NCBI RefSeq assembly: GCF_036321535.1
Contig: NC_087436.1
Span: 83,826,001 to 83,890,000 of the forward strand
DNA: 64,000 nt
Source of the DNA: Camelus dromedarius
Lineage: Eukaryota
Direction: 5' to 3'
Of this stretch, positions 3,548-64,000 are shown one piece after another. The notes beneath the pieces are model-generated. The model worked only from the letters and a program-made list of their open reading frames with translations. It ran no database searches and was not told the DNA's origin. The position numbers and the translations under genes are program-made. Numbering within the stretch: position 1 is the stretch's first letter; each line of letters opens with the position of its first letter.

Positions 3548-4410
3548 AGTTTTATTGAGATATATTTTACAGATTACAGAATTTATCCACTTTAAGTGTA
3601 CAAGACAGTGAATTTTAGTCTATTAACAAAGTTACACAATCATCTACCGGAATTTAATTTTAAAACATCTCCATCGCTCTAAAAAGAAATTTACGCCCCT
3701 TTAGTCACTCTCTATTCCCACCTCCAGCCCTAGGCAACTACTCATTTTCTTTTTCTCTCTATATATTTGTCTTTTAGGTCATTTCATATAAATGGATCAT
3801 ACAATAGGTGTTCTGTGTCTGGCTTCTTTCACTGAGCACGTTTTTGAGGCTCATCCATGTTGTAGCCTGTATCAGTACTGCATTCCTTTTCATTGCTGAA
3901 TAGTTATCCATTCCATGGACATACATTTTATTTACCTTTTCACCAGTTGATGGACATTGAGCTATTTTCACCTTTCGGGCTATAGTGTACAATGCTGCTA
4001 TGATCATTTGCATTCACACTTCTGTGTGGGCATATATTTTTATTTCTCTTGGGCAAATACCTAAGAGTGGAATTTCTAGGTCACATGGTAAGTCTGTTTA
4101 ACTTTTTAAAGCAACTGCCAAGCTGTTTTCCAATGTGGCTGCATCATTTTACATTCTCACCAGCGGTGAGAGTTCTGGTCTCTGCACATCTTTGGCAACA
4201 CTTGTTATTATTTGCCTATTTTCTATACCCATTTTAGTCAGTAAGAAATGGTATCTCATTGTGGTTTTGATATACACTTCCCTAGTGAGTAATGATGTTG
4301 AGTATCTTTTCATGTTCCTGCTGGCTTATCGGTACTATTTATTGGCATTCGTTCTTTGGATAAATGTCTATTCACATCTTTTGTCCTTTTCTAATTGGGT
4401 TACTTGCTTC
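3548..4410 (-). mobile_element. Old L1 (L1MB-like) 3' end with ORF2 C-terminal remnant
   Basis: tttattgagatat... terminus. Minus-strand translation MQMIIAALYTIARK...CPST...ATTWMSLKNVLSERSQTQ matches the L1 ORF2 C-terminus. Confidence 0.85.
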
Positions 4411-13070: not shown

Positions 13071-13332
13071 AATAGTGCCAGCCTAGAAAAAATACTAAAA
13101 TAATCATTTAAATAAATATACATTTAATTTTGAGCAAAGGACAAATAAAACTGATTGTCCCATTTTGTGAATGGAGAAGGTGAGGCATATAATTTCGTTA
13201 AATGTTTATCTTAAGCGCCCTGGGATAGGCACTAGTACCTGAAGACACCATGTAACCGAGTGCCTATTTCACACCAGGAGGCTTCACCGTGATTGAAAAC
13301 GACATTTTATCATACAGTAAAGAAACTCTTAC

Positions 13333-13584
13333 GGTTACTAAAGGGGAAAGGGAGGGGACGGATAAACTAGGAATTTGGGATTTGCAGATACAAACTACTA
13401 TATATAAAATAGATGAACAACAAGGTCCTATTGTACAGCACAGGGAACCATATTCAATACTTGTAATAAACTATAATGAAAAGAAATATAAAAAAGAATG
13501 TATATATAAATGTGTAACTGAATCACTATGTTGTACACCACAAACTAACACAACGTTGTATATCAATGACACTTCAATTAAAAA
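13333..13584 (+). mobile_element. 5'-truncated L1 3' UTR with 14-bp TSD
   Basis: L1 3' UTR text (ggaatttgggatttgcagatacaaactactatatataaaatagat...gaatcactatgttgtacacc) and an A tail. TSD aaagaaactcttac at 13319-13332 and 13585-13598. Confidence 0.85.
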
Positions 13585-14477
13585 AAAGAAACTCTTACAT
13601 GCATATGATCGACATTGTTTACAGCAACAAATAGTTTTCAAATTTTATGCAGTACTATCCCTAAAGGGAGATGAGAATGATAAACAAATAATACTGGAAG
13701 GCGAAGGGGCATAGCTGGAGGCAGCCAGCCAAAAGATAGAAATTTATCTGAAGTCCTGTGTTCTATCATCTAAGAATGGAGACTTTGTCCTTTGACTCCT
13801 CTGTAGGTCAAATTCTGGTAGGAAACAGATGGCATTTTCAAACTGGGTAAGTGAGGAGAATTTTATAAAGAGATCTACAAAGATGTAGGCAGGTTTTAGG
13901 GCAATCACAAAGCAGTAGTGTAGTACCATGGGTCTAGTGATGAGCTGGGGTCCAGGACATGACTCTCAGGCCTGAGAAGCCAAGGACCGGAGGACTAGCC
14001 AGGACCCAGCCTAATGAAGAAGCAGGGGTTCCGGTTCAAATAAGGGTGACACAGCCAACACAAGCCCCCCAGCGTGGCTGATAGGGGAAATAAATGCCTC
14101 GACCTTACTCTCTCTCCTCCGTGCCGCCCACCTCCAGCCAGCACGCGGAGAGGCTGAAAGCAGGTGGTGGCAGCATGGCAAGGGGGCCTGTGATCCCCGT
14201 CTATACAAATCAGCCTCCAAGTGCACCAAGCAGGATGAGCAAGGTGAAGAATGGACCGAGAATAGCCGACGGGAGACAGATACAACCACACACATCCATG
14301 TTCCCTTCAATATTAAAGCGACTCACGTACTTCCCATTAAAACTACCACCAGGTGTTTCAAGAAGATTGGCACTTTAGCGTGGAAGGGTTCCTGCACCCC
14401 GGTTTGGGTGGCACAGAAATCAGTAAATCCTTGACTGCACAGTGGATCTTTGGCAACTTCAAATCCCAAACTGAGGG

Positions 14478-27038: not shown

Positions 27039-29456
<2,418 letters not shown>

Positions 29457-29749: not shown

Positions 29750-30810
29750 CCTCAAAAATCATTTGGGTAATCAGATTTACCAGATATCAGAAAGTCCTAT
29801 CAAGCTACTGTAATCAAATCAGTAAGTACTGAAATAGGCCTAAACAGATATGTGGAATAGAATATCTAGAAACAGATCCAGATATAAATGAGGATTTACT
29901 ATATGACAAAAGAGGCATTTCAGTGTAGTGGCAAAAGGATGAATTCTTTAATATAAGGGGTTGGCAAACTATCTATTCATCCAGAAGAAAAGAAAACTAG
30001 ATCTTTATCTTACACCAATTTGAAAAATCAAATTCAGATGGATTTAGAGAGATTAAAGGTTAAACTGTAAAACAAATAATTAAGTTAAAAATCCTGTTAA
30101 GAAAATCTAGGATCATAAATATAATCTAGGAGCAGAGTGGGTAAGGTTTTTTTGGGGGCAAAGCAGAAAATACAAAAACTATAAGAGAAAAAACATCAAC
30201 ATAGATGACTAGAAAAATTACAAAACTTTTGCATGGCAAAAGATAATATGAACAAATACAAATGACTGGAAAAAATGTTTGCATCCCTATAGGACATAAC
30301 TGTAACACAGCAGAAGCTCTTAAAAATTTACAAGGAGACAAAATAATCCATTGGAAAAATGGATAAAGAATATGAAAGCATAGTTTGCAAAAGAGGAAAT
30401 CCAACAGCCAACAACCTTATGAAAAGATGATCAAATTCATTTGTAGTCAAAGAAATGCAAATAAAGTAACAATGAGATTTTACTCTATACCAATAGCACT
30501 TGCAAAAACTTTAAAAAAAAAAGTTATAACACCATGGTCTGGGGAAACCTAGTGAAAGGAAGTATTTTTAATTCTATGTGCAAATGTGTATAGTTGTAGC
30601 TTTCTTAGGGAAGTAGGTTAGCTTCTAAAACTAAAAATACATATGTCCTTGACCCAGTGATCTTATCAATAGAAATAAAATAGCAGCATATGTAGATACA
30701 TGTTTATTGAAGTACTATTTGGAGACTTAAAACAAACTGCTCTATAAATAGGGGAATGGCAGAATAAATCATGATATAGCTCCCCTGTGAAGCATTATGC
30801 AACAATTAAA
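29750..30810 (+). mobile_element. Highly degraded ancient L1 ORF2 3' region (L1ME-like)
   Basis: A-rich L1-like text, e.g. gtggaatagaat...ctagaaacagatcca...tatgacaaaagaggcatttca and agaaatgcaaataaagtaacaatgagat. Confidence 0.6.
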
Positions 30811-30811
30811 A

Positions 30812-31580
30812 TAATTAAAACCACAGTGAGATATTGCCTCATACCTGTCAGAATGGCTATCACCAAGAAGAACACAAATAGCAAATGTTGGTGAGGATGT
30901 GGAGAAAAGGGACACCTCATACACTGTTGGTACAAATGTAAATTGGTGCAGCCACTATGGAAAACAGTATGGAGGTTCCTCAAAAAACTAAAAATAGATT
31001 TACCAAATGATCCAGCAATTCTCCTACTGGGTAGGTATCTGCAAAAACAAAACCACTAATTCAAAAAAGATACACACACCCCAGTGTTCATAGCAGCATT
31101 ATTTACAACTGCCAAGATATGGAAGCAACCTAAGTGTTCATCGAAAGATGAATGCATAAAGATGTGGTATATCTATACAATGGAATACTACTCAGCATAA
31201 AAAAGAACGGAATTTTTCCATACACAGCAACATGGATGGGCTTGGAGGGCATTATGCTAAGTGAAGTAAGTCAGACAGAGAAAGACAAATACTATGTATC
31301 ACTTACACGTGGAATCTAAAAAATATAACAAACTAGTGATATAACAAAAAAGGGGCAGATTCAGATATAGAGAACAAACTAGTGGTTGGTTACCAGTGGG
31401 GAGTGAGGGAGGGGCCATATAGGGGTGGGGGAGTGGGAGGTACAAACACTGGGTGTGAGACAGGCTTCAAGGACATATTGTATAACATGGGGAATGTAGC
31501 CAATATTTTGTACTAACTGTAAATGGAACATAACCTTGAAAAATTGTATTAAAAAATTAAAAACAAAACAAAGTAAAAAC
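30812..31580 (+). mobile_element. Mid-age L1 3' end nested in the older L1
   Basis: ORF2 C-terminal text (ccacagtgagatattgcctcatacctgtcagaatggctatc...ggaagcaacctaagtg), then a 3' UTR with a G-rich block and an A-rich tail. Confidence 0.85.
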
Positions 31581-34198
31581 CCAATTAAGTAGGCTAGAAC
31601 TTTTCACTTGGGAGAAATTTCCCCAAGGTATTGCTGGGAGAATAAATCAAGGAACAGAAAAGAATATATATGTTTTTATTTTTGTAAAACAATGATCTAA
31701 AACACTACATATGTGTTATGTGTGTGCGTGTGTAAAGATATGCTTGTGTGTGAGTATATAAATTCTAAAAATATATATAATGACACATAGCAGGTGGTAA
31801 ATGGAGGGAGTGTAAGGACTCGGAACTATGGAAAAAGAGATAGAAGTTTCCAAAGGTATGAAAATTTTGAATTTTAAAAACTATATCTGAATTTTTTAAA
31901 GTATATATGAAAATTTACTTATATGTGTTTATACATAAACATTTTTTAGACAGGATAACCAGACTTTATGTGATATGGATCAAACAATGATTCAGAAATT
32001 AGTAGATGACTATTTTAATTTCACCTCTATTGCTCATAGACTCTCTGACCTTATGCTAATCATTTAATCTTTCTGCACCCCACATTAACTTACTGGCAAA
32101 ATAAATTATATGATTTCTAAGGACCATTCCAGCTCCAAAATTCAAAGATCCTATTTCTTTGCATGTGATGGATAATAAGTCAAACAGCACCATCTTAACT
32201 CTGGCTTAAGGGTCAAAATTGTAGACAAAGGCAAATGTGGTTGGGCCAAGATTTTGAAAGAAAGAATTTGATATTTTGGTTCAATGTTATTTGGTTGATC
32301 TATATCATAAGAAATCTAACAATAAATCCAACTTATCTTCTTCCCTGAACCAGCTCTTCCTTCTAACTTCATTATTCATATTAATGGGTTAAATTTTTTC
32401 CCATCCTGGGTTTTGACTGCTTTTTGTTCATACAAATCATTCCCCAGGTTTATGTTCCATTTCTTCTTTTCTGGAGTCTTCTGTTGCAATCATTTGTTGT
32501 GCCCAAGCCCATCTTTCCTCTCCCTCTTTTGCCTCTGTCTCTATAATACCTTTAGTGCCACCCTCTGCCCTCCTCACCCTCAAAAAGCCTACCCATTCTT
32601 CAAAGCCCCACTTAAACCCCGTATCCTTCCTGAAGGCCTTCTAAGGCCTTTCAGGTCATAAAGTCTCTCTCTCTCTTTAAAATCCTACAGCTATGGTCCT
32701 CTGTGTCCCTTGAATTGTGCTTTTTATGTACGGTTGCTACTTGTGTTAATGCCTGATTTCTCCAAAAGTACTTCAGCCCCAGGAGGGAAGGGGACAAGCT
32801 TATTGATTCTTTTTTGTTCACTCTGCAGGACACAGTGCAGGGTCTTGTGCATAAAAAGGTGTTAATTGATCCCATTTCCCTCCAAAAATGGCCATTATTA
32901 AGCCCTGCCAAACTTCAAAATAATACAAAATTTCAACCTATGACATGAAATATTATTGAAAACACAATTTAAAAGAGTGCTATTTTTGGAAGTAAGTAAA
33001 TGATTGTATCTCATTTATGAGACTTTATGTATCTGTAATCCAGATTTAGACCATTGAAAACAAGCACATTGGACATCTGCTACAAAAAAGGTGGAAGGTC
33101 TCATAAATTCAGGAGTAAAGAACATCTCTGTGTTATATGGCTGGAGCCAAGAAATCTGGCTTTCTAGAAAGGACTGTAAAACATGAACAACTCAAAGTTC
33201 AGCAACCGAAAGTTGAAAGACTTAGAAAAGCTGAGGGACTTCATAAAACTCTCAGAAGTCAGAATTTATCTCCATTTCCCACAGAGAGCTGATGGTACTA
33301 GTTCACCTTTGAAAGGATGTTTTCTTTTGTTTGCTTTGTTAACAGAGGATAAATTATCCATCAATTCAAGAATCAAGAAGAAAAGCCCTGATTGCTTGGA
33401 TACGCTTGTAATTCAAAATCTCTTGATTCATGGGTAGACAGAAAATCAACACTACTCTGAAAAGATCTGCTATTGTAATTGTCACAGCATTTCCACGAGC
33501 CCAGGAGAGACTGCCTAAGCTCAGAAACAACCCTCCTCCCCGATTACCCCTACTCTTCTCCAACCAAATAATGGAAATCCATAGTCTCTAATAGGTTAGA
33601 CAAATAGGTCATTTAAAAAATGTAATTACTTGATGGTTTAGAGTGAGGAGTAAAAATCTTTAAAATCAACAGGAGTCCATTGTGGTAAGATTTAATAACC
33701 TCTGAAAGTGAGGTTGCAAACAAGTGGTCCACAGACTGAATGAATTCCTTCTGCAGGTGTGTGTGTGTGTCCTGTGTGGTTTTTCCCTTCTCTGCTCTCC
33801 TTTCCCTTTCTCTTTCCCCCTCTCTTCTTCTCTTTCCCCTCTTCCCTCTCTTTTCTTTCCTTGTCCTTTGAATTAAAAAGATCTTTCGTAAAAATCCAGA
33901 TTTCTCTTGCTTCTCTTAAAAAAAAAAAAAAAAACACCTCAGAAAGTATCCATTTCCAGATGGCAACATTACATGGTGCTGATAAGGGCCATCCCTCTAG
34001 AAGGCAGGGACACTCCAGAACCCAGAACCCCCAGCCCTCACTTACCCTCCTTGTTTACCTTACTCACTTGGGTTCCTATGGGCAGCTAAGTTTGAGAGCT
34101 TTATTCTAAGAGTGCTGACACAGTAGACTTCTCAACCTAACTTTTAGTTTGCTGAGGGCAGTTCAGCACTGTGTTTAAGAACATGGACCCTGGGGCAA

Positions 34199-35822
34199 CC
34201 CAGGACATATTTCACGGAACTAGAGCAAATCATAATAAAATTTATATGGAACCATCAAAGACCTAGAATTGCCAAAGCATTACTGAAGAGAAAGAAAGAG
34301 GCTGGACGAATAACTCTCCCAGACTTCAGACAATACTATAGAGCTACAGTCATCAAGACAGCATGGTATTGGTACAAAAACAGACATATAGACTAATGGA
34401 ACAGAATAGAGAGCCCAGAAATGAACCCACAAACTTTTGGTCAACTCATCTTCGACAAAGGAGGCAAGAATATACAATGGAATAAAGACAGGCTCTTCAG
34501 CAAATGGTATTGGGAAAACTGGACAGCGGCATGTAAAACAATGAAGCTAGAACACTCCCTTACACCATACACAAAAATAAACTCAAAATGGATCAAAGAC
34601 TTAAACATAAGACAAGATACAATAAACCTCCTAGAGGAAAATATAGGCAAAACATTATCTGACATACATCTCATAAATTTTCTCCTAGAAGAAATAAGAG
34701 CAAGAATAAACAAATGGGACCTAGTGAAACTTACCAGCTTCTGCACAGCAAAGGAAACCATAAGTAAAACAAAAAGACAACTTACGGAATGGGAGAAAAT
34801 TTTTGCAAATAAAACTGACAAAGGCTTGATCTCCAGAATATATAAGCAGCTCATACGACTCAATAAGAAAAAAATAAACAACCCAATCCAAAAATGGACA
34901 GAAGACCTAAACAAGCAATGCTCCAAGGAAGACATACAAATGATCAATAGACACATGAAAAAATGCTCAATATCACTAAATATCAGAGAAATGCAAATCA
35001 AAACTACAATGAGGTATCACCTCACACCAGTCAGAATGGCCATCATTCAAAAATCCACAAATGACAAATGCCGGAGAGGCTGTGAAGAAAAGGGAACCCT
35101 CCTTCACTGCTGGTGGGAATGCAGTTTGGTGCAGCCACTGTGGAAAACAGTATGGAGATTCCTCAAAAGACTAGGAATACACTTACCATATGACCCAGGA
35201 ATCCCACTCCTGGGCATATATCCAGAAGGAACCCTACTCCAAAATGACACCTGCACCCTAATGTTCATAGCAGCATTATTTACAATATCCAAGACATGGA
35301 AAGAGCCTAAATGTCCATCAACAGATGACTGGATAAAGAAGCGGTGGTATATTTATACAATGGAATACTACTCAACCATAAAAACCGACAACATAACGCC
35401 ATTTGCAGCAACATGGATGCTCGTGGAGAATGTCATTCTAAGTGAAGTAAGCCAGAAAGAGAAAGAAAAATACCATATGAGATTGCTCATATGTGGAATC
35501 TAAAAAACAAACAAACAAACAAAGCATAAATACAAAACAGAAATAGACTCACAGACATAGAATACAAACTTGTGGTTGCCAAGGGGGCAGGGGGTGGGAA
35601 GAGATAGACTGGGATTTCAAAATTGTAGACTAGATAAACAAGATTATACTGTATAGCATGGGGAAATATATACAAGATCTTATGGTAGCTCACAGAGAAA
35701 AAAATGTGACAATGAATATATATATGGTCATGTATAACAGAAAAATTGTGCTGTACACTGGAATTTGACACAACATTGTAAAATGATTATAAATCAATAA
35801 AAAAATGTTAAAAAAAAAAAAA
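34199..35822 (+). mobile_element. Relatively young 5'-truncated L1 (ORF2 3' part, 3' UTR, poly-A) with 22-bp TSD, inserted into a MIR
   Basis: The 360-aa ORF 34421-35503 is the L1 ORF2 C-terminus ([19 protein letters not shown]). TSD aagaacatggaccctggggcaa at 34177-34198 and 35823-35844; TT|AAGA endonuclease-type site; the joined flanks read as a MIR (about 34165-36055). Confidence 0.95.
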
Positions 35823-36087
35823 AAGAACATGGACCCTGGGGCAAGAATCCCTGGATTAGAATATGAGTTTCACTACCTAGCTCTAGGTTTGTGTGCTTAG
35901 GCAAGTAAGTTAACCTCTCAAAGCCCCAGTTTAATACATAAATTGAGGATAATAGTAACAGTACACAGCCTCATTGGGATGCTGTGAGGAACAGACTTAG
36001 CATTTAGAACAAATAGTGCCTCGGCACCTGTTAAACACCATATAAGTGTTAGCCTCTTTAAAAGAACCTCAATTTTAAATTTTGATC

Positions 36088-52899: not shown

Positions 52900-55560
52900 T
52901 AAGCCTTTATTTTTAAGAGCAGTTTAACATTTACAGCAAAAGTGATAGGAAGATATACAGATTTTTCATATCTCCCTGTCCCCAGACATGCACAGCCTCC
53001 CCCACTACCCACATCCCCCACCAGAATGGTACATTTGTTATAACAGATGAACCTACAGGAACACATCATTATCACCCAATGTCCATAGTTTACATTAGGG
53101 TTCATTCTTGGTGCTGTACATTCTATGGGTTTGGATAAACGTATAATGACAATGTATCCATCATTAGGTACCATTCAGAGTATTTTGTGTCCTATTTCAC
53201 TCTGTGCTCCACCTAATCATTCCTTCTCTCCCTGCCCTTTTAACCCCTGGAAAACACTGATCTTTTTACTGTCTCCATAGTTCTATTTCCCAGAAAGTCA
53301 TATGATTGGAATTATACAGTATGTAGCCTTTTCAGACTGGCTTATTTTATTTAGTAATATTCATTTAAGGTTCTTCCATGTCATTTCATTTCTTCTTAGC
53401 TCTAAATAATATTCCATTGTCTGGATATACCATAGCTTAGCTATACAATTATCTACTGAAAGACATCTTGGTTGCTTCCAGGTTTTGGTAATTATGAATA
53501 AAGCTGCTATAAACATGCATGTACAGGTTTTTGTATGAATATAAGTTTTCAGTTTATTTGGGTAAATACCAAGGAGTGCAACTGCTGGATTATACATTAA
53601 GATTATGTTTAGTTTCTTAAGAAATTGCCAAACTATCTTCCAAAGTATTTGTACTATTTTGCATTCCCACCAGCAATGAATGAGCGTTTCTGTTGCTCCA
53701 CATCCTCATTAGCATTTGGTGTTATTATTTTGGATTTTGGTCATTCTAACTGGTGTGTTGTGGTATCTTGTTGTTGTTTTTAATTTGCATTTTTCTGACA
53801 ACATATGATGTGGAGCATCTTCTCATATGCTTATCTGCCATCTGTATATCTTCTTTGGTGAAGTGTCTGTTAAGATTTTTGGCCATTTTTAAAAATTTTA
53901 TTTATTTTTTTAATTGAAGTATAGTCGATTTACAATGCTGTGTTAGTTTCTGGTGTACAGCATACTGACTCAGTTATAAACATATATATATTCTTTTTCA
54001 TATTCTTTTCCATTATAGGTCATTACAAGGTATTGAATATAGTTTCCTGTGCTATACAGTCAAACCTTGTTGTTTATCTATTTTATATATAGTAGTTAGT
54101 ATCTAAAATTCCAGACTCCCAATTTATACGTCCCCACTCCCCTTCCCCTTTGGTAACCAAAAGTTTGCTTTTTATGTCTGTGAGTCTCTTTCTGTTTTAT
54201 AAATATATTCATTTGTATCATATTTTAGATCCACATGTAAGTGATACTATATGATATTTGTCTTTCTCTTTCTGATTTAACTTTAGTTAGTAGGTCCATC
54301 CATGTTACTGCAAATGGCATTATTTCATTCTTTTTTATGGCTCAGTAGTATTCCATTGTGTGTATATATTCTACATCTTCTTTATCCATTCATCTGTCAA
54401 TGGACATTTAGGTTGCTTCCATACCTTGGCTATCGTAAATAAGTCTATGCTATGAACACCAGGGTGCATGTATCTTTATGAATCAGAGTTTTCTCCAGGT
54501 ATATGCCCAGGAGTGGGATTGCTGGATCATATAGTAACTTTATTTTTAGTTTTTTTAGGAACCTCTATAATGTTCTCCATTGTGGCTGTACCAATTTGCA
54601 CTCCCATCAACAGTGTAGGAGAGTTTCCTTTTGGCCATTTTTTAATCAGGTTGTTTTCTTGCTGAGTTTTAAGAGTTTTTTTATGTTTTGAATAACTCCT
54701 TTTTTAGGTGTGTCTTTTGAAAATATTTTCTCCCATATTGTAGTTGGTCTTCTTATTCTCTTGATGTTGTTTTTCATAGAGCAGAAGTTTTTTATTTTGA
54801 TGAAATCCAGCTTATCAATTCTTTCTTTCATGGATTATGCCTTTGGGGTTGTATCTAAAGGTCATCTTGGTTTTCTTCTATGTGATCTTCTAGGAGTTTC
54901 ATAGTTTTGCATTTTACATTTAGGTCTATGATCCATCTTGAATTAATTTTTGTGAAGGGTGTAAGCTCTGTGTCTAGATTCATATTTTTGCATGTGTATG
55001 TCTAGTTGTTCCAGCACCATTTGTTGAAAAAGACTATCTTTGCTCCATTGCATTGCCTTTGCTCTTTTGTTGATGATCACTTGACTATATTTATGTGGGC
55101 CTATTTCTGGACTCTGATGACACATCAATGTTCCATTGATCTATTTGTCTATTCTTCACCAATACCAGACTGTCTTGACTACTATAACTTTATGGTAAGC
55201 TTTGAAGTTTGGTAGCATCAGTCCTTCAGCTTTGTTCTCCTTTAATATTATGTTGGCTATTCTAGGACTTTTGCCTGTCCAAATAAACTATAGAATCAGT
55301 TTGTCAAGATCACAAATAAACTTGCTGGGATTTTAATTGGTATTGCATTAAATTTATAGATGAAGTTGGGAAGAACTGATATTTTGCTATTACTGAGGAT
55401 TACTGAATCTTCCTATCCATGAACATGGAGTATCTCTTCATTTATTTAGTTCTTTGATTTCATTTACCAGAGTCTTGTAGATTTCCTCACAGAACTTGTA
55501 TGTATTTTGTTAGATAGATTTATACCTAAATATTTCACTTGGGGGATGTTAACATAAATG
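52900..55560 (-). mobile_element. Old L1 (L1MC-like) 3' 2 kb, interrupted by a younger L1
   Basis: Minus-strand ORF2 remnants (YNPAVALLGIYP...MFIAALFIITKTWKQPRC; KIKNFCS...WEKIF) and an L1MC-type 3' terminus. Confidence 0.85.
53891..54628 (-). mobile_element. Younger 5'-truncated L1 nested in the old L1, 14-bp TSD
   Basis: TSD ttttggccattttt at 53877-53890 and 54629-54642; terminus taattgaagtatagtcgatttacaat. Confidence 0.85.
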
Positions 55561-57567
55561 ATGGTTAGTTTCTTTTGAAAAATCAGACATTGCTCTTATA
55601 TTTCTCTATAGAAACAACAGGTAATCTGTTGTTACACAAGATAAGTATATCCTCCCCTCACTCACCCCAAAGCCTCCAAAAGTAAAAAGAGAAGAAACAC
55701 AAATGTATTAGAAGATAAGGTGAGTGCACTGCAATCTGTAAAGAAACAGGGGAAAAAATAGTTTTGGATTATTATTATTGTCCAGCATACTGGCACTGTT
55801 TCCCAGCCTCTTCCCTATCACCCCCATGATGGGAATTCAAAGGTCATGGTATCATATCTCCACCTCTCATTTGTAGAGTGGATATATGGCTGGGTGATGT
55901 TCTGCCTGCCAAGAATCCAGCAGCTTTAGTCTGAACTCATAATTAATATTCCCATGGTGAGGGGAGGGAGGAAATATACATGAAATGATAGCTTATAAGA
56001 ATATGTGTCAAATATGCTTGTTTGGAAAGATCTAAATTTTAACAATTTTTAATGTCTTTTTTTTTTCCTTTTCAACAGTTCATCCTGATACAAGAGCTCC
56101 TTAAACATTTTGGCAGGGGCCTTTAGCCCAAACAAAATTTTCTCCTAGAACCATTAAAGTGTGTGTGGGGGGGTGTCATGACCTCAGAAGAGTCCGTTCG
56201 CCATCACAGTGGCTTTTGGGGCCACAGCTGAGTTCTCAAAAGTGTTCCCTCTATTTGTGGGCTAATCTCTCGGGAAAAGTGGTAGATTCTTTCCTTGTGG
56301 GGCTTATGTCTAGGTGGGAGGCAAGATGATCCCAGGAGAAGGCATGAGAGACCTGCAAGAGCAGAACATCTATCCCCAAGGGGCAGTCCACAAACTGGGG
56401 CATGCCAGCGGAGGGACCAGGAGCCCCAGGGACACAGGCAGAACTTCTTCCTACTTCAAACTACTGTGCTTTCTTGTGCTGACCCAGATGTTGCTCTGCA
56501 TGGCTGACTGTCCATTATCTCTCCACTTGTCAGATCTACAACTTGACTTTGCCCCTTTTGTCCTGGGACCTTGGAGAGTTAGTCCATAGTGCTGACCACC
56601 TGCCTGGCCTTAGTCATTCCAAACTCCTTTTTTTCCATCCTCTGCCCTTGGGTGTCTGAGGGATATATTGTCTTTTCACTAGCTGCTCATTATTTAACTC
56701 ATAAAGCTCATGCAGCTTTCATCACTGCATTCCACCCAGCCTCATGCTATAATCACCATGACCTTGATGTGGATGAATCCCAAAGACTTTCTGCCTTCAT
56801 CTGAGTTGACCTCTTAGGCACATTCAACACATGAATGTTTCTTCTTTGAAATATATGCCTCTCTCAGCCTCCATGACCCACAGTCTATTCATTTTTTTCT
56901 GTCTTTCTGTCCAGTCCAGCTTGGGTAGCTTTTCTTCCTTAGCTCTAAATGCCAGAGTTTGTTAGATTTATTCCTCAGCCTTTTTCACTATCCCCTTTTT
57001 ATCCTTAAAAGGGGGAACTCATCTAATCCCATATATATTTATAACCCATCTTATCAGTTGTTTTTTGCTGCAATATTGCTATGTAACAAACTACCCCAGA
57101 ATTCAATGTCAGACAGCAGTGAGCATTTTCTGTGTGAGGAAATTGAGACTCAGTGAGAAACATTACCTTCTTAGAGGGGACATAAGTGACATAGCCTCCA
57201 AATCTGATTCATGGGTCACTGCATTTTCCACTGTATTGTGAACTTAGAAAGAAAGGAATTATCATATCCACCTCATTTCTATCAACAGCCAATGTAGAGT
57301 TATCACATTTCAAAATGTTTTTTAAAAAATTCTCCCGTATTTTAGTTCTCTGAAATTCTGTACAAACATGCCATTAATGTCTCTTGTTAAGCTCCTTTAT
57401 TTGATACTTGAATGAGAGCTTTCATCCATTTGCCACAACTATCCTAGCATATTCAAATTCTCCTTCTCTCTCCAAACCATTATAAATGGTCAGTCCCTAT
57501 GAAAGTATTAATTACATCTAGACTTTCAGGTTCAATATAATAAAATGTTACTCATTTGGAATGAAGG

Positions 57568-58960
57568 AGGTATCCATCAGGATTCTTTGGTGGCACATAA
57601 CAACAAATGATTCTAGCTAACTTACAGAGAGGGGGAGTTTACACAAATGAGAAATGCTGGAGAGGCTGTGGAGGAAAGGAAACCCTCCTTCACTGCTGGT
57701 GGGAATGCAGTTTGGTGCAGCCACTGTGGAAAACAGTATGGAGATTCCTCAAAAGACTAGGAATACACTTACCATATGACCCAGGAATCCCACTCCTGGG
57801 CATATATCCAGAAGGAACCCTACTCCAAAATGACACCTGCACCCTAATGTTCATAGCAGCATTATTTACAATATCCAAGACATGGAAAGAGCCTAAATGT
57901 CCATCAACAGATGACTGGATAAAGAAGCGGTGGTATATTTATACAATGGAATACTACTCAACCATAAAAACCGACAACATAACGCCATTTGCAGCAACAT
58001 GGATGCTCCTGGAGAATGTCATTCTAAGTGAAGTAAGCCAGAAAGAGAAAGAAAAATACCATATGAGATCACTTGTATGCGGAATCTAAAACAAACAAAC
58101 AAACAAAAAATACAAAACAGAAACAGACTCATAGACATAGAATACAAACTTGTGGTTGCCAGGGGGACAGGAGGTGGGAAGGGACTGGGATTTCAAAATG
58201 TAAAATAGATAAACAAGATTGCATTGTGTAGCACAGGGAAATATATACAGGATCTTGTGGTGGCTCACAGGGAAAGAGAATGTGACAATGAATGTATGTA
58301 TGTTCATGTATAACTGAAAAATTGTGCTCTACACTGGAATTTGACACAAAATTGTAAAATGACTATAACTCAATAAAAAATGCTTATATAAGAAATTTTT
58401 AAGAAAAGCAGGCATAGAAGGGGAGTTTATTGGAATAATAAACACCTGTAGCACTTACTTGGAGTAGGCACCACTCTAAGCATTAAATCCATTCATTCCT
58501 ATTGAACCCTGTAGGTAGGCACCATTACTCATCCCACAAATGTGGAAATCAAGGCACAGAGAAGTGAAGCAGTAACTTGCTCCAGATCACCCAGTTAGGA
58601 CGTGGCCAAACCTGGATTTGACCCCAAGCCATTCAGCTCAGAGTCTTTGGCACTCCAGCCTATCCAAGGATATGGGGTAGTCACAGAATTGAAGGGAAGG
58701 CTATAGAAGCAGGTTTAGAATAGGGCAGCAACCAGGGCATGGTAAACAACTGTCACTGGGATATATTATCTCTAACCACCCCCTGCCCACCCCCCAAACC
58801 CTTGTATCAGTCAAAGGCTCCAGATTCAAAGCCCTAGGAGAGTGGCTCAATTGGCCATTGCCTATGAGAGGACAGGACACCTTGTCTGATGGGTCTACTG
58901 AGGTTGCACACATAGAGGAAGAATCAGTTCCCCAAGAGGAAATGGGAGTATTGTTTTAAA
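57568..58960. mobile_element. Ancient MaLR LTR (MLT1J/K-like) split by the L1 and by a MIR (about 58435-58655)
   Basis: The pieces join as catcaggattctttggtggca...ctagctaactta...gagtttattggaa / ggatatggggtagtcacagaattgaagggaaggct. The MIR core gtggaaatcaaggcacagagaagtgaag lies between them. Confidence 0.55.
57642..58386 (+). mobile_element. 5'-truncated L1 of the same family as 34199-35822
   Basis: ORF2 C-terminus and 3' UTR align directly with 35056-35810. Candidate TSD ggggagttta at 57632-57641 and 58420-58429. Confidence 0.92.
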
Positions 58961-59199
58961 GGAAAGGGACTAGATTTGGGAAAGGTAGCCAGCAAAAACT
59001 GTCCATTCCGTGGAGAATGAAGGAAAGATTTTTACTCATACTAACAAGCTGTTCCCAATGGCAACCGTATGAGAAACCTTTCAATTGCCTGAAGAACATG
59101 TCCTCATAGGCACCTTTATCTGGAAGAGATGTCCCTACACTTTTTGTAGCTTCCACCTCTGCCCCAAGGCCAGGCTGTAGAACTCACATTTTCCTACTT

Positions 59200-62851: not shown

Positions 62852-64000
62852 TGAACAAAATTATTAGCAAACTGAATCCAACAATATATGAAAAAGATCA
62901 TACACCATAATCAAGATGGATTCATTCCAGGGATGCAAGGATAGTTCAATATTTGTAAATCAACCAGTGTGATATACCACATTAACAAAAGGAAGGGAAA
63001 AAAGTCCCATGAGCATCTTAATAGACACAGAAAAGGCATTTGATAAAATTCAACATTCATTCATGATAAAAGTTATCGTCAAAGTGGGTATAGAGGGAAC
63101 ATAACTCAACATAGTAAAGGCTGTATATAATAAGCCCACAACTAATGTCACACTCCACACTGAAAAGCTAAAAGTCTTTCCTTTAAATTCAGGAACAAGA
63201 CAAGGATGCCCACTTTTGCGACTTCAATTTAACACAGTATTGGCAGTCCTAGTCACAGCAATTAGAAAGAAAATGAAATAAAAGTAATAATAAAAAAAAT
63301 AAAATTTGGGTAAATTGGAAGGGGAGAAGTAAAACTGTTACTCTTTGCAGATGACATGATACTTTTTTTAGGAAACCCTAAAGTCTCCACCCAAAACTAT
63401 TAGAACTAATAAATAAATTCAGCAAAGTTGCATGATACAAGATTAATATGCAGAGTCTGCAACTTTTCTATACACTATTAATGAACTATCAGAGAGAAAG
63501 TAAAGAAAAAAAAATCCTGTTTAAAATCACATAAAAAATAATAAAATACCTAGGAATGAACTTAACCAAGGAGGTAAAAGATCTATACTCTGAAAACTAT
63601 AAAACACTGATGAAGGAAATTGAATATGATACAAAGAAATGGAAAGATTTCCTGTGCTCTTAGATTGGAAAAATTAGTATTGTTAAAATGTCCACACAAC
63701 TCAGAGAAATCTAGAAATGTCATGCAATCCTTTTCAAAATACCCATATTTTTCACAGAACTAGAACAAATAATCCTAAAACTCATGTGGAACCACGGAAG
63801 ACTGAATTGCCAAAGCAATCTTGAGAAAAAAGAAAGAAGATGGAGGTACCATGCTTTCAGATGTCAGCCTATACTACAAAGCTACAGAAGTCTGAACAGC
63901 ATATTGCTGGCATAAAAACAGACACGTAGATCAATGGAACAGAATAAAGAGTCCAGAAATAAACCCACACACCTATGGTCAATTAATCTATGACAAAGGA
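62852..64000 (+). mobile_element. Degraded L1 ORF2 (reverse transcriptase region), continuing past the window end
   Basis: ggattcattccagggatgcaagg, aggaacaagacaaggatgcccactt (GTRQGCPL), ctctttgcagatgacatgat (LFADDM) and aaatacctagga (KYLG), with multiple stops and frameshifts. Confidence 0.92.

What the first reader, a model, noticed from the sequence alone, without database searches (positions are those of the whole stretch)
35095..35483. 328-bp perfectly identical tract between two otherwise diverged L1 copies 22.6 kb apart: ectopic gene conversion or assembly collapse
Seen: 35095-35422 matches 57681-58008 base for base (constant offset 22586), and the match extends to 35483/58069 with one mismatch. 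The ORF track corroborates this with identical 62-aa antisense peptides at 35104-35292 and 57690-57878. The roughly 40 bp just upstream differ at 5 positions, and the two 3' UTRs differ at many positions and by indels (about 10% by eye). The copies have different 5' truncation points and flanks, so they are independent insertions rather than a duplication. Inference: a sharply bounded identity island is the signature of recent non-allelic gene conversion between direct repeats. Such a pair could also seed a 22.6-kb deletion in the GPRIN3 intron. Repeat homogenisation during assembly or polishing would look the same.
Basis: partly seen in the sequence, partly recalled or inferred. Interest (0 to 1): 0.7.

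Follow-up and report, generated by a model that had tools for sequence, protein, structure and literature searches.

The report
Copied patch between two camel LINE-1s
Two old, dead copies of a jumping gene 22.6 kb apart in a camel genome share a 328-letter patch, including each other's private mutations, so one was overwritten from the other, most likely by ordinary gene conversion, although an assembly error is not excluded.

Summary
Observation confirmed to the base: 35095-35422 equals 57681-58008 (328/328; 388/389 to 35483), against 37 substitutions in 349 columns and 5 indels elsewhere. The genome is a Camelus. Both repeats are 5'-truncated camelid L1 copies, each with its own target-site duplication, so they are independent insertions with unexchanged flanks. 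Simple conservation is refuted. In the tract both copies carry the same 7 non-majority residues, 4 of them absent from every one of 25 camel L1 ORF2 proteins covering the site. Family pairs differ by 12.6% there, and 0 of 253 pairs are identical. One copy was therefore overwritten from the other. Recent non-crossover gene conversion (under about 1-3 Myr) is the best reading (0.62). An assembly or polishing artefact remains open (0.30), because no read-level test was obtained (one search returned no data). Direction is unknown. No deletion was seen, and the first GPRIN3 exon was not located. Conversion between transposon copies is well known. This scan has noted such tracts on other DNA (bacterial paralogs, felid PCDH8); none of the notes shown concerned an L1 pair. 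A real feature of the sequence as given, but ordinary.

The parts
34199..35822 (+). L1 copy A: 5'-truncated camelid LINE-1 (3' part of ORF2, 3' UTR, clean A-tail), 1.6 kb
   Evidence: tblastn with L1 ORF2 proteins P0146 and P0007; named camel L1 ORF2 relatives; ends set by the TSD
34177..34198 (+). 5' copy of A's 22-bp target-site duplication
   Evidence: 22/22 match to 35823-35844
35823..35844 (+). 3' copy of A's target-site duplication
34202..35503 (+). ORF2 remnant of A; one in-frame stop at 34394-34396, open for 368 codons after it
35095..35422 (+). Identical tract in A (328 bp). Shared non-majority codons start at 35180, 35243, 35258, 35288, 35303, 35342 and 35375, so the minimal transferred segment is 35180-35377
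35423..35483 (+). Extension of the tract in A: one A-specific change at 35423 (Val codon where 24 of 25 family proteins and copy B have Leu), then 60 identical bases
35504..35804 (+). 3' UTR of A, 9.2% substitutions and 4 indels against B
57642..58412 (+). L1 copy B: 5'-truncated copy of the same family, 0.77 kb, degenerate A-rich end
57625..57641 (+). 5' copy of B's probable 17-bp target-site duplication
   Evidence: 15/17 match to 58413-58429, the best candidate found
58413..58429 (+). 3' copy of B's probable target-site duplication
57681..58008 (+). Identical tract in B (328 bp; extends with one mismatch to 58069)
27039..29387 (-). GPRIN3 coding exon (782 aa). Both L1 copies lie upstream of it and antisense to it; an acceptor-like site ends at about 29502
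   Evidence: cluster members named GPRIN3; Pfam GRIN_C; acceptor read by eye from the output

Best explanation
Recent non-allelic, non-crossover gene conversion between two old neighbouring L1 fragments. Shown: A and B inserted independently and drifted about 10% apart, and one now carries the other's sequence, private mutations included, over at least 35180-35377 and probably 328-389 bp, while both keep their own flanks. Inferred: a double-strand break in or near one copy was repaired by strand invasion of the direct-repeat neighbour 22.6 kb away (same chromatid, sister or homologue), synthesis of a few hundred bases and re-annealing (SDSA-type), leaving no deletion. The single change at 35423 would be a later mutation in A. 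Inferred age is under about 1-3 Myr, younger than the dromedary-Bactrian split. Donor and recipient cannot be assigned. The patch has no likely function; its only consequence is a perfect-homology segment that makes the pair a better substrate for further ectopic recombination.
For: Sharp identity island, 1/389 against 37/349 outside. Seven shared non-majority residues, 4 seen in no family protein covering the site (0 of 23, 0 of 25, 0 of 25, 0 of 25) and 3 seen in 2 of 25. Each copy keeps its own TSD pair, so no crossover. The size is close to the 250-bp mean tract estimated for human non-allelic conversion (10.1101/135152, passages). About 89% identity is within the range (over 80%) in which conversion mainly occurs (PMC3924818, passages). 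The partner is the neighbouring copy of the same family, which distance-dependent recombination predicts, whereas a genome-wide graph or mapping error could draw on any family copy (inference; about 350,000 LINE1 hits are annotated per camel genome, PMC8605555, passages). One internal mismatch fits later mutation somewhat better than verbatim copying (inference).
Against: No read, long-read or second-assembly evidence was obtained (one search gave no data; two searches found no independent record of either copy). Perfect identity is also what an artefact gives. The distance of 22.6 kb is beyond the roughly 10 kb over which Alu-Alu conversion is elevated (PMC6598467 and PMC8230782, sections read). 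Conversion slows with divergence and with lack of about 200 bp of perfect homology (PMC3924818). The lone mismatch could be a heterozygous site: at camel diversity of 0.52-0.88e-3 (PMC7305198), 0.2-0.3 such sites are expected in 389 bp (my arithmetic).
Confidence: 0.62

Rival explanations
1. Assembly, gap-filling or polishing artefact: the true copies differ across the tract, but a local assembly step (linked-read or clone-pool graph, local gap fill, bubble popping between two chance-identical k-mer runs, or mis-mapped polishing reads) wrote one copy's sequence into both places.
For: 0 differences in 328 bp. The tract is about the size of a short-read fragment or graph bubble. Both edges are long stretches without non-majority residues (35095-35179 and 35378-35422), which could serve as shared entry and exit k-mers. 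Locally pooled methods would favour a neighbour as the source (inference). The assembly method is unknown to me.
Against: A genome-wide graph or mapping error has no reason to pick the neighbour. Verbatim copying does not by itself explain 328 identical bases, one A-specific change and 60 more identical bases: a 60-bp run has P 0.001-0.02 at 10.6-6% divergence. The window has no N and no other identity island, though its other L1 pairs are at most 82% alike and so a weak control.
Confidence: 0.3
2. Chimera formed at insertion: during reverse transcription one element switched template to a transcript of the other copy and back, or a cDNA of one copy later converted the other.
For: It would also transfer private mutations. 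cDNA-mediated conversion is reported for yeast Ty and Tf2 (PMC6598467).
Against: A chimera made at insertion would have aged along with its flanking parts, yet both copies carry private changes immediately outside the tract and none inside. It needs two switches within 400 bp. Both copies are 5'-truncated, promoterless and antisense to GPRIN3. Later cDNA-mediated conversion cannot be told from DNA-templated conversion here.
Confidence: 0.05
3. Simple conservation or a shared subfamily: the 3' end of ORF2 is alike in all young copies, or both copies come from one rare master carrying these residues.
For: ORF2 evolves more slowly than the 3' UTR in active L1 lineages (general knowledge). The closest family pairs differ at only 3/99 and 4/109 residues. 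The comparison is at protein level, on 25 proteins.
Against: 0 of 253 family pairs with at least 90 shared codons (of 300 possible pairs) are identical; the mean difference is 12.6%. ORF2 positions just outside the tract differ at 10/57. A shared master cannot explain zero later mutations inside and 10.6% outside: P(0 in 328) is 1.5e-9 even at 6% divergence.
Confidence: 0.01

Closest known systems
Non-allelic gene conversion between transposon copies: Alu-Alu partial conversion (PMC8230782; 10.1101/241356) and LTR conversion on the human Y (reviewed in PMC6598467)
   Same: Partial tract inside otherwise diverged copies, transfer of several linked private mutations, nearby donor, tract of one to a few hundred bases.
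   Different: Here the elements are L1 3' fragments in a camel, 22.6 kb apart (Alu conversion is elevated within about 10 kb). The case rests on one assembly, without orthologues or population data, so direction and reality are untested.
Non-allelic gene conversion between segmental duplicates (10.1101/135152; PMC3924818)
   Same: Tract size (250-bp mean) and non-reciprocal pattern.
   Different: Those rate estimates were limited to pairs with ds below 5%; this pair is about 10% diverged and shares only about 750 bp of homology.
Camelid LINE-1 (proteins annotated 'LINE-1 retrotransposable element ORF2 protein [Camelus dromedarius]')
   Same: 84-88% identity of the best named hits to copy B's ORF2 end; 5' truncation, A-rich tail and TSD.
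   Different: Both copies are dead fragments; they share residues that the family majority lacks.
Repeat collapse or homogenisation in genome assembly (general knowledge; no specific paper read)
   Same: Letter-perfect identity with sharp edges.

Membership tests
Camelid LINE-1 insertion | Homology to the L1 ORF2 C-terminus | tested here: met
   Best hits are named camel L1 ORF2 proteins, E 4e-87, 87-88%; tblastn. Pfam gave no family for 2 of 2 L1 fragments from the window or for P0007.
Camelid LINE-1 insertion | 5' truncation, 3' A-rich tail and target-site duplication | tested here: met
   A: 22/22 TSD, clean tail. B: 15/17 TSD, degenerate tail, less certain.
Non-allelic gene conversion | Tract of identity beyond chance inside diverged paralogs | tested here: met
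   Permutation tests, 0 of 200,000 in both settings.
Non-allelic gene conversion | Shared derived (non-consensus) changes confined to the tract | tested here: met
   7 shared non-majority residues inside. Of 8 non-majority residues outside the 328-bp tract, none is shared by both copies. Protein level only; silent sites untested.
Non-allelic gene conversion | No exchange of flanking markers (non-crossover) | tested here: met
   Each copy is bracketed by its own TSD pair.
Non-allelic gene conversion | Present on real molecules, not only in the assembly | not testable with these tools
   laid no reads; searches do not decide it.
Non-allelic gene conversion | Non-reciprocal transfer with an identifiable donor (orthologues in sister species) | not testable with these tools
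   No genome is held; no orthologue of copy A among the 120 listed hits. The tract's load (7/109 codons) fits either copy.
Segmental duplication | Homology extends into shared flanks | tested here: not met
   The match is limited to 35056-35804 / 57642-58380; flanks are unrelated.

The most novel reading that the evidence does not exclude
The conversion is real, happened within the last few hundred thousand years between L1 fragments 10% diverged and 22.6 kb apart, and still segregates in camels. By creating over 300 bp of perfect homology it re-armed an old repeat pair as a recombination substrate, so that a 22.6-kb deletion or duplication allele upstream of the GPRIN3 coding exon exists in the population.
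Probability: 0.08. Interest if true: 0.45.

Novelty: new member of a known kind. Interest (0 to 1): 0.2.

Why it matters
If real, it is one clean example of conversion between old, diverged L1 copies at over 20 kb. It shows how such events reset the apparent age of repeat segments and restore a stretch longer than the roughly 200 bp minimal segment for efficient recombination. A genome-wide count of such neighbour tracts by distance would give a rate for L1, for which my searches showed no such estimate. If it is an artefact, it is a marker of local repeat homogenisation in this assembly. A single non-coding case does not change any model.

Tried and rejected
No whole genome is held, so no DNA-level family alignment was possible. 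A 26-nt camelid L1 motif had 0 exact matches in metagenome contigs. A scan of prokaryote genomes gave 2 loci from 123 candidate stretches, both short L1 contaminant contigs at 65-73% identity and of no use. The sequencing-run search listed 24 runs: 20 contig sets from 9 studies hold 0.88-0.89 of 246 sampled words of the copy-B region, and 4 raw-read runs are not indexed. The missing 11% was not located, and the share cannot tell conversion from artefact because tract words occur in either copy; I draw nothing from it. Laying reads on copy B returned no data. A protein search with the 5' ORF2 part of A found no orthologue among the 120 listed hits (best full-length 73%; one partial hit at 85%). 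Exact look-up of 5 short ORFs crossing the 3' edge of the tract found 0 of 5 in the collection; uninformative. Direction: TSD decay (0/22 against 2/17, Fisher p 0.18) and the cleaner A-tail hint that A is younger, but this is not significant and does not give the donor. A's ORF2 is as diverged outside the tract (22/151 against P0263) as inside (12-13/109 against P0130 and P0126). Rejected: segmental duplication (no shared flanks), crossover hybrid (TSD pairs intact), coding function of the antisense peptide (a by-product of the identity). Literature: six searches listed no paper on this locus or on L1-L1 neighbour conversion in camelids; the library lacks most subscription papers. A search for false conversion caused by assembly listed nothing specific. 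PMC5715747 is not held. Passages of PMC7827986, PMC12337305 and PMC13141329 were read and not used. No supplementary files were read.

Full report
Observation. At offset 22586, 35095-35422 matches 57681-58008 at all 328 positions, 35423 differs, and 60 more bases match. The two repeats share about 750 bp (35056-35804 and 57642-58380). Outside the 389-bp island they differ at 5/39 positions on the 5' side, 5/18 plus one indel at the end of ORF2, and 27/292 plus four indels in the 3' UTR, 10.6% in all. Random placement of the 38 substitutions gave a 328-bp run in 0 of 200,000 trials (longest 255). With ORF2 columns only, it did so in 0 of 200,000 (longest 327, analytic P about 4e-6). Fisher tests give p 7e-12 and 6e-9 but use boundaries picked after the fact. 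The identical antisense peptides follow from the DNA identity and add nothing.

Setting. The long minus-strand ORF at 27039-29387 is GPRIN3. It differs by 1 residue from the protein named for Camelus ferus and by 27 from alpaca, so the genome is a Camelus; the assembly method is unknown to me. An acceptor-like site ends at about 29502, 114 nt before the ATG (read by eye). No CpG-island-like window lies between 29.5 and 64 kb, so the first exon was not located. That the pair is intronic rests on my recollection of the human gene (one long intron after a non-coding first exon).

Anatomy. Copy A (34199-35822) is a 1.6-kb 5'-truncated L1 with a clean A-tail and a perfect 22-bp target-site duplication. 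Copy B (57642-58412) is a 0.77-kb copy with a degenerate tail and a probable 17-bp duplication with two mismatches. The best protein hits are annotated camel L1 ORF2 proteins at 87-88%. Different 5' ends, unrelated flanks and separate TSDs make them independent insertions, and intact TSD pairs show that no crossover has exchanged their flanks.

Test against the family. I took the 7 camel-named clusters among the 120 listed hits and all 25 of their members (22 named for the dromedary, 3 unnamed) and compared them with both copies. Over the 109 tract codons, A and B carry the same 7 residues that differ from the family majority: His at 35180 (0 of 23 proteins covering it), Asn at 35243 (2 of 25), Leu at 35258 (0 of 25), Ser at 35288 (0 of 25), Glu at 35303 (0 of 25), Arg at 35342 (2 of 25) and Thr at 35375 (2 of 25). 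Outside the 328 bp, 4 non-majority residues are A's alone and 4 are B's alone; none is shared. Family members differ from the majority at 5-12 tract residues and from A at 10-17. Of 300 possible pairs, 253 share at least 90 codons; none is identical, the mean difference is 12.6%, and the closest are 3/99 and 4/109. So the tract carries one old copy's normal load of mutations, present twice. Limits: protein level only, 25 proteins, biased towards open reading frames.

Mechanism. One copy was overwritten from the other after those mutations arose. In a cell, this is non-allelic gene conversion without crossover: break, invasion of the neighbouring direct repeat, copying of a few hundred bases, re-annealing (inferred from established recombination pathways). 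The minimal segment is 35180-35377. The likely one is 328-389 bp, since 85 identical bases on the 5' side would be unlikely by chance (P 7e-5 to 5e-3). With 1.1e-8 per generation and 5 years (PMC7305198, passages) or 2.5e-8 (PMC8605555, passages), 0/328 gives a 95% upper age of 2.1 or 0.9 Myr, 1/389 gives 2.8 or 1.2 Myr, and the outside divergence corresponds to 24 or 11 Myr. The two domestic camel species split about 4.4-7.3 Myr ago (PMC7305198), so a real tract should be confined to one lineage. Direction cannot be assigned: the tract's load fits either copy and TSD decay is not significant (p 0.18).

Conversion or artefact. This is the open question, and I obtained no direct evidence. No genome is held, the read-laying run returned no data, the run search cannot discriminate, and protein look-ups found no independent record of either copy. 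Indirect points for conversion: the source is the neighbour, the size is near the 250-bp mean of human non-allelic tracts (10.1101/135152, passages), about 89% identity is permissive (PMC3924818, passages), and one A-specific change sits inside a longer identical stretch. Points for an artefact: perfect identity; edges that could act as shared k-mers; locally pooled assembly methods would also favour a neighbour (inference); 22.6 kb exceeds the roughly 10 kb range of elevated Alu conversion (PMC6598467, parts 1-2 of 4 read; PMC8230782, part 1 of 4 read); rates fall with divergence; and the lone mismatch could be a heterozygous site. I put conversion at 0.62, artefact at 0.30, an insertion-time or cDNA chimera at 0.05 and conservation at 0.01.

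Comparison with what is known. Partial conversion between transposon copies is documented for Alu (98 cases, 69 partial, PMC8230782 abstract; mean tract 118 bp and decay with distance in a gorilla scan, 10.1101/241356, passages) and for LTRs (PMC6598467). Intra-element LTR conversion has been counted in camel genomes (PMC8605555). The case works like these and meets the three sequence criteria I could test; presence on real molecules and the donor were not testable. Six searches listed no paper on this locus or on camelid L1-L1 conversion. Earlier notes of this scan show the same kind of tract in bacterial paralogs and at felid PCDH8, nothing near this place, and no L1 pair among the 8 of 22 notes shown for this genome.

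Verdict. The feature is real in the sequence as given and is not explained by conservation. It is a new instance of a known process, or an assembly error. The suggested 22,586-bp deletion is only a possibility; nothing here shows it. Interest 0.2.

Noticed in passing
window 30813-31421 (+), 53319-53889 (-), 53886-55485 (-), 63514-64000 (+), 3810-4325 (-), 29777-29970 (+), 13319-13586 (+): Older L1 fragments, 66-75% identical to copy A or B where they match; 13319-13586 is a 3' UTR piece 82% identical to 53905-54171. None shows an identity island.
   Followed up: partly
window 58381-58412: About 30 nt of mixed A-rich sequence between the end of B's 3' UTR and its TSD: a decayed A-tail or a short 3' transduction.
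   Followed up: no
window 34140-34198 and 35823-36050: Copy A appears to have inserted into a MIR-like SINE (resemblance recalled, not tested).
   Followed up: no
window 27039-29387 (-), residue 523: The window's GPRIN3 has Ala at 523 where the C. ferus-named protein, alpaca and two Logan proteins have Asp or differ elsewhere; against C. ferus it is the only difference. Alpaca is not listed as differing at 523, so Ala there is shared with alpaca.
   Followed up: no
window 56700-59100: All 20 indexed runs from 9 studies hold the same 0.88-0.89 share of sampled words; the missing 11% is unexplained.
   Followed up: partly
L001 2-367; L002 35-213: Mammalian-type L1 ORF2 fragments on short, low-coverage contigs of two bacterial genome records (Labilibaculum sp. 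K2S; Lentibacillus lipolyticus), most likely contamination.
   Followed up: no
window 34397-35503: Copy A keeps 368 open codons of ORF2 despite its age; it has a one-residue gap near 34811 against P0263.
   Followed up: partly
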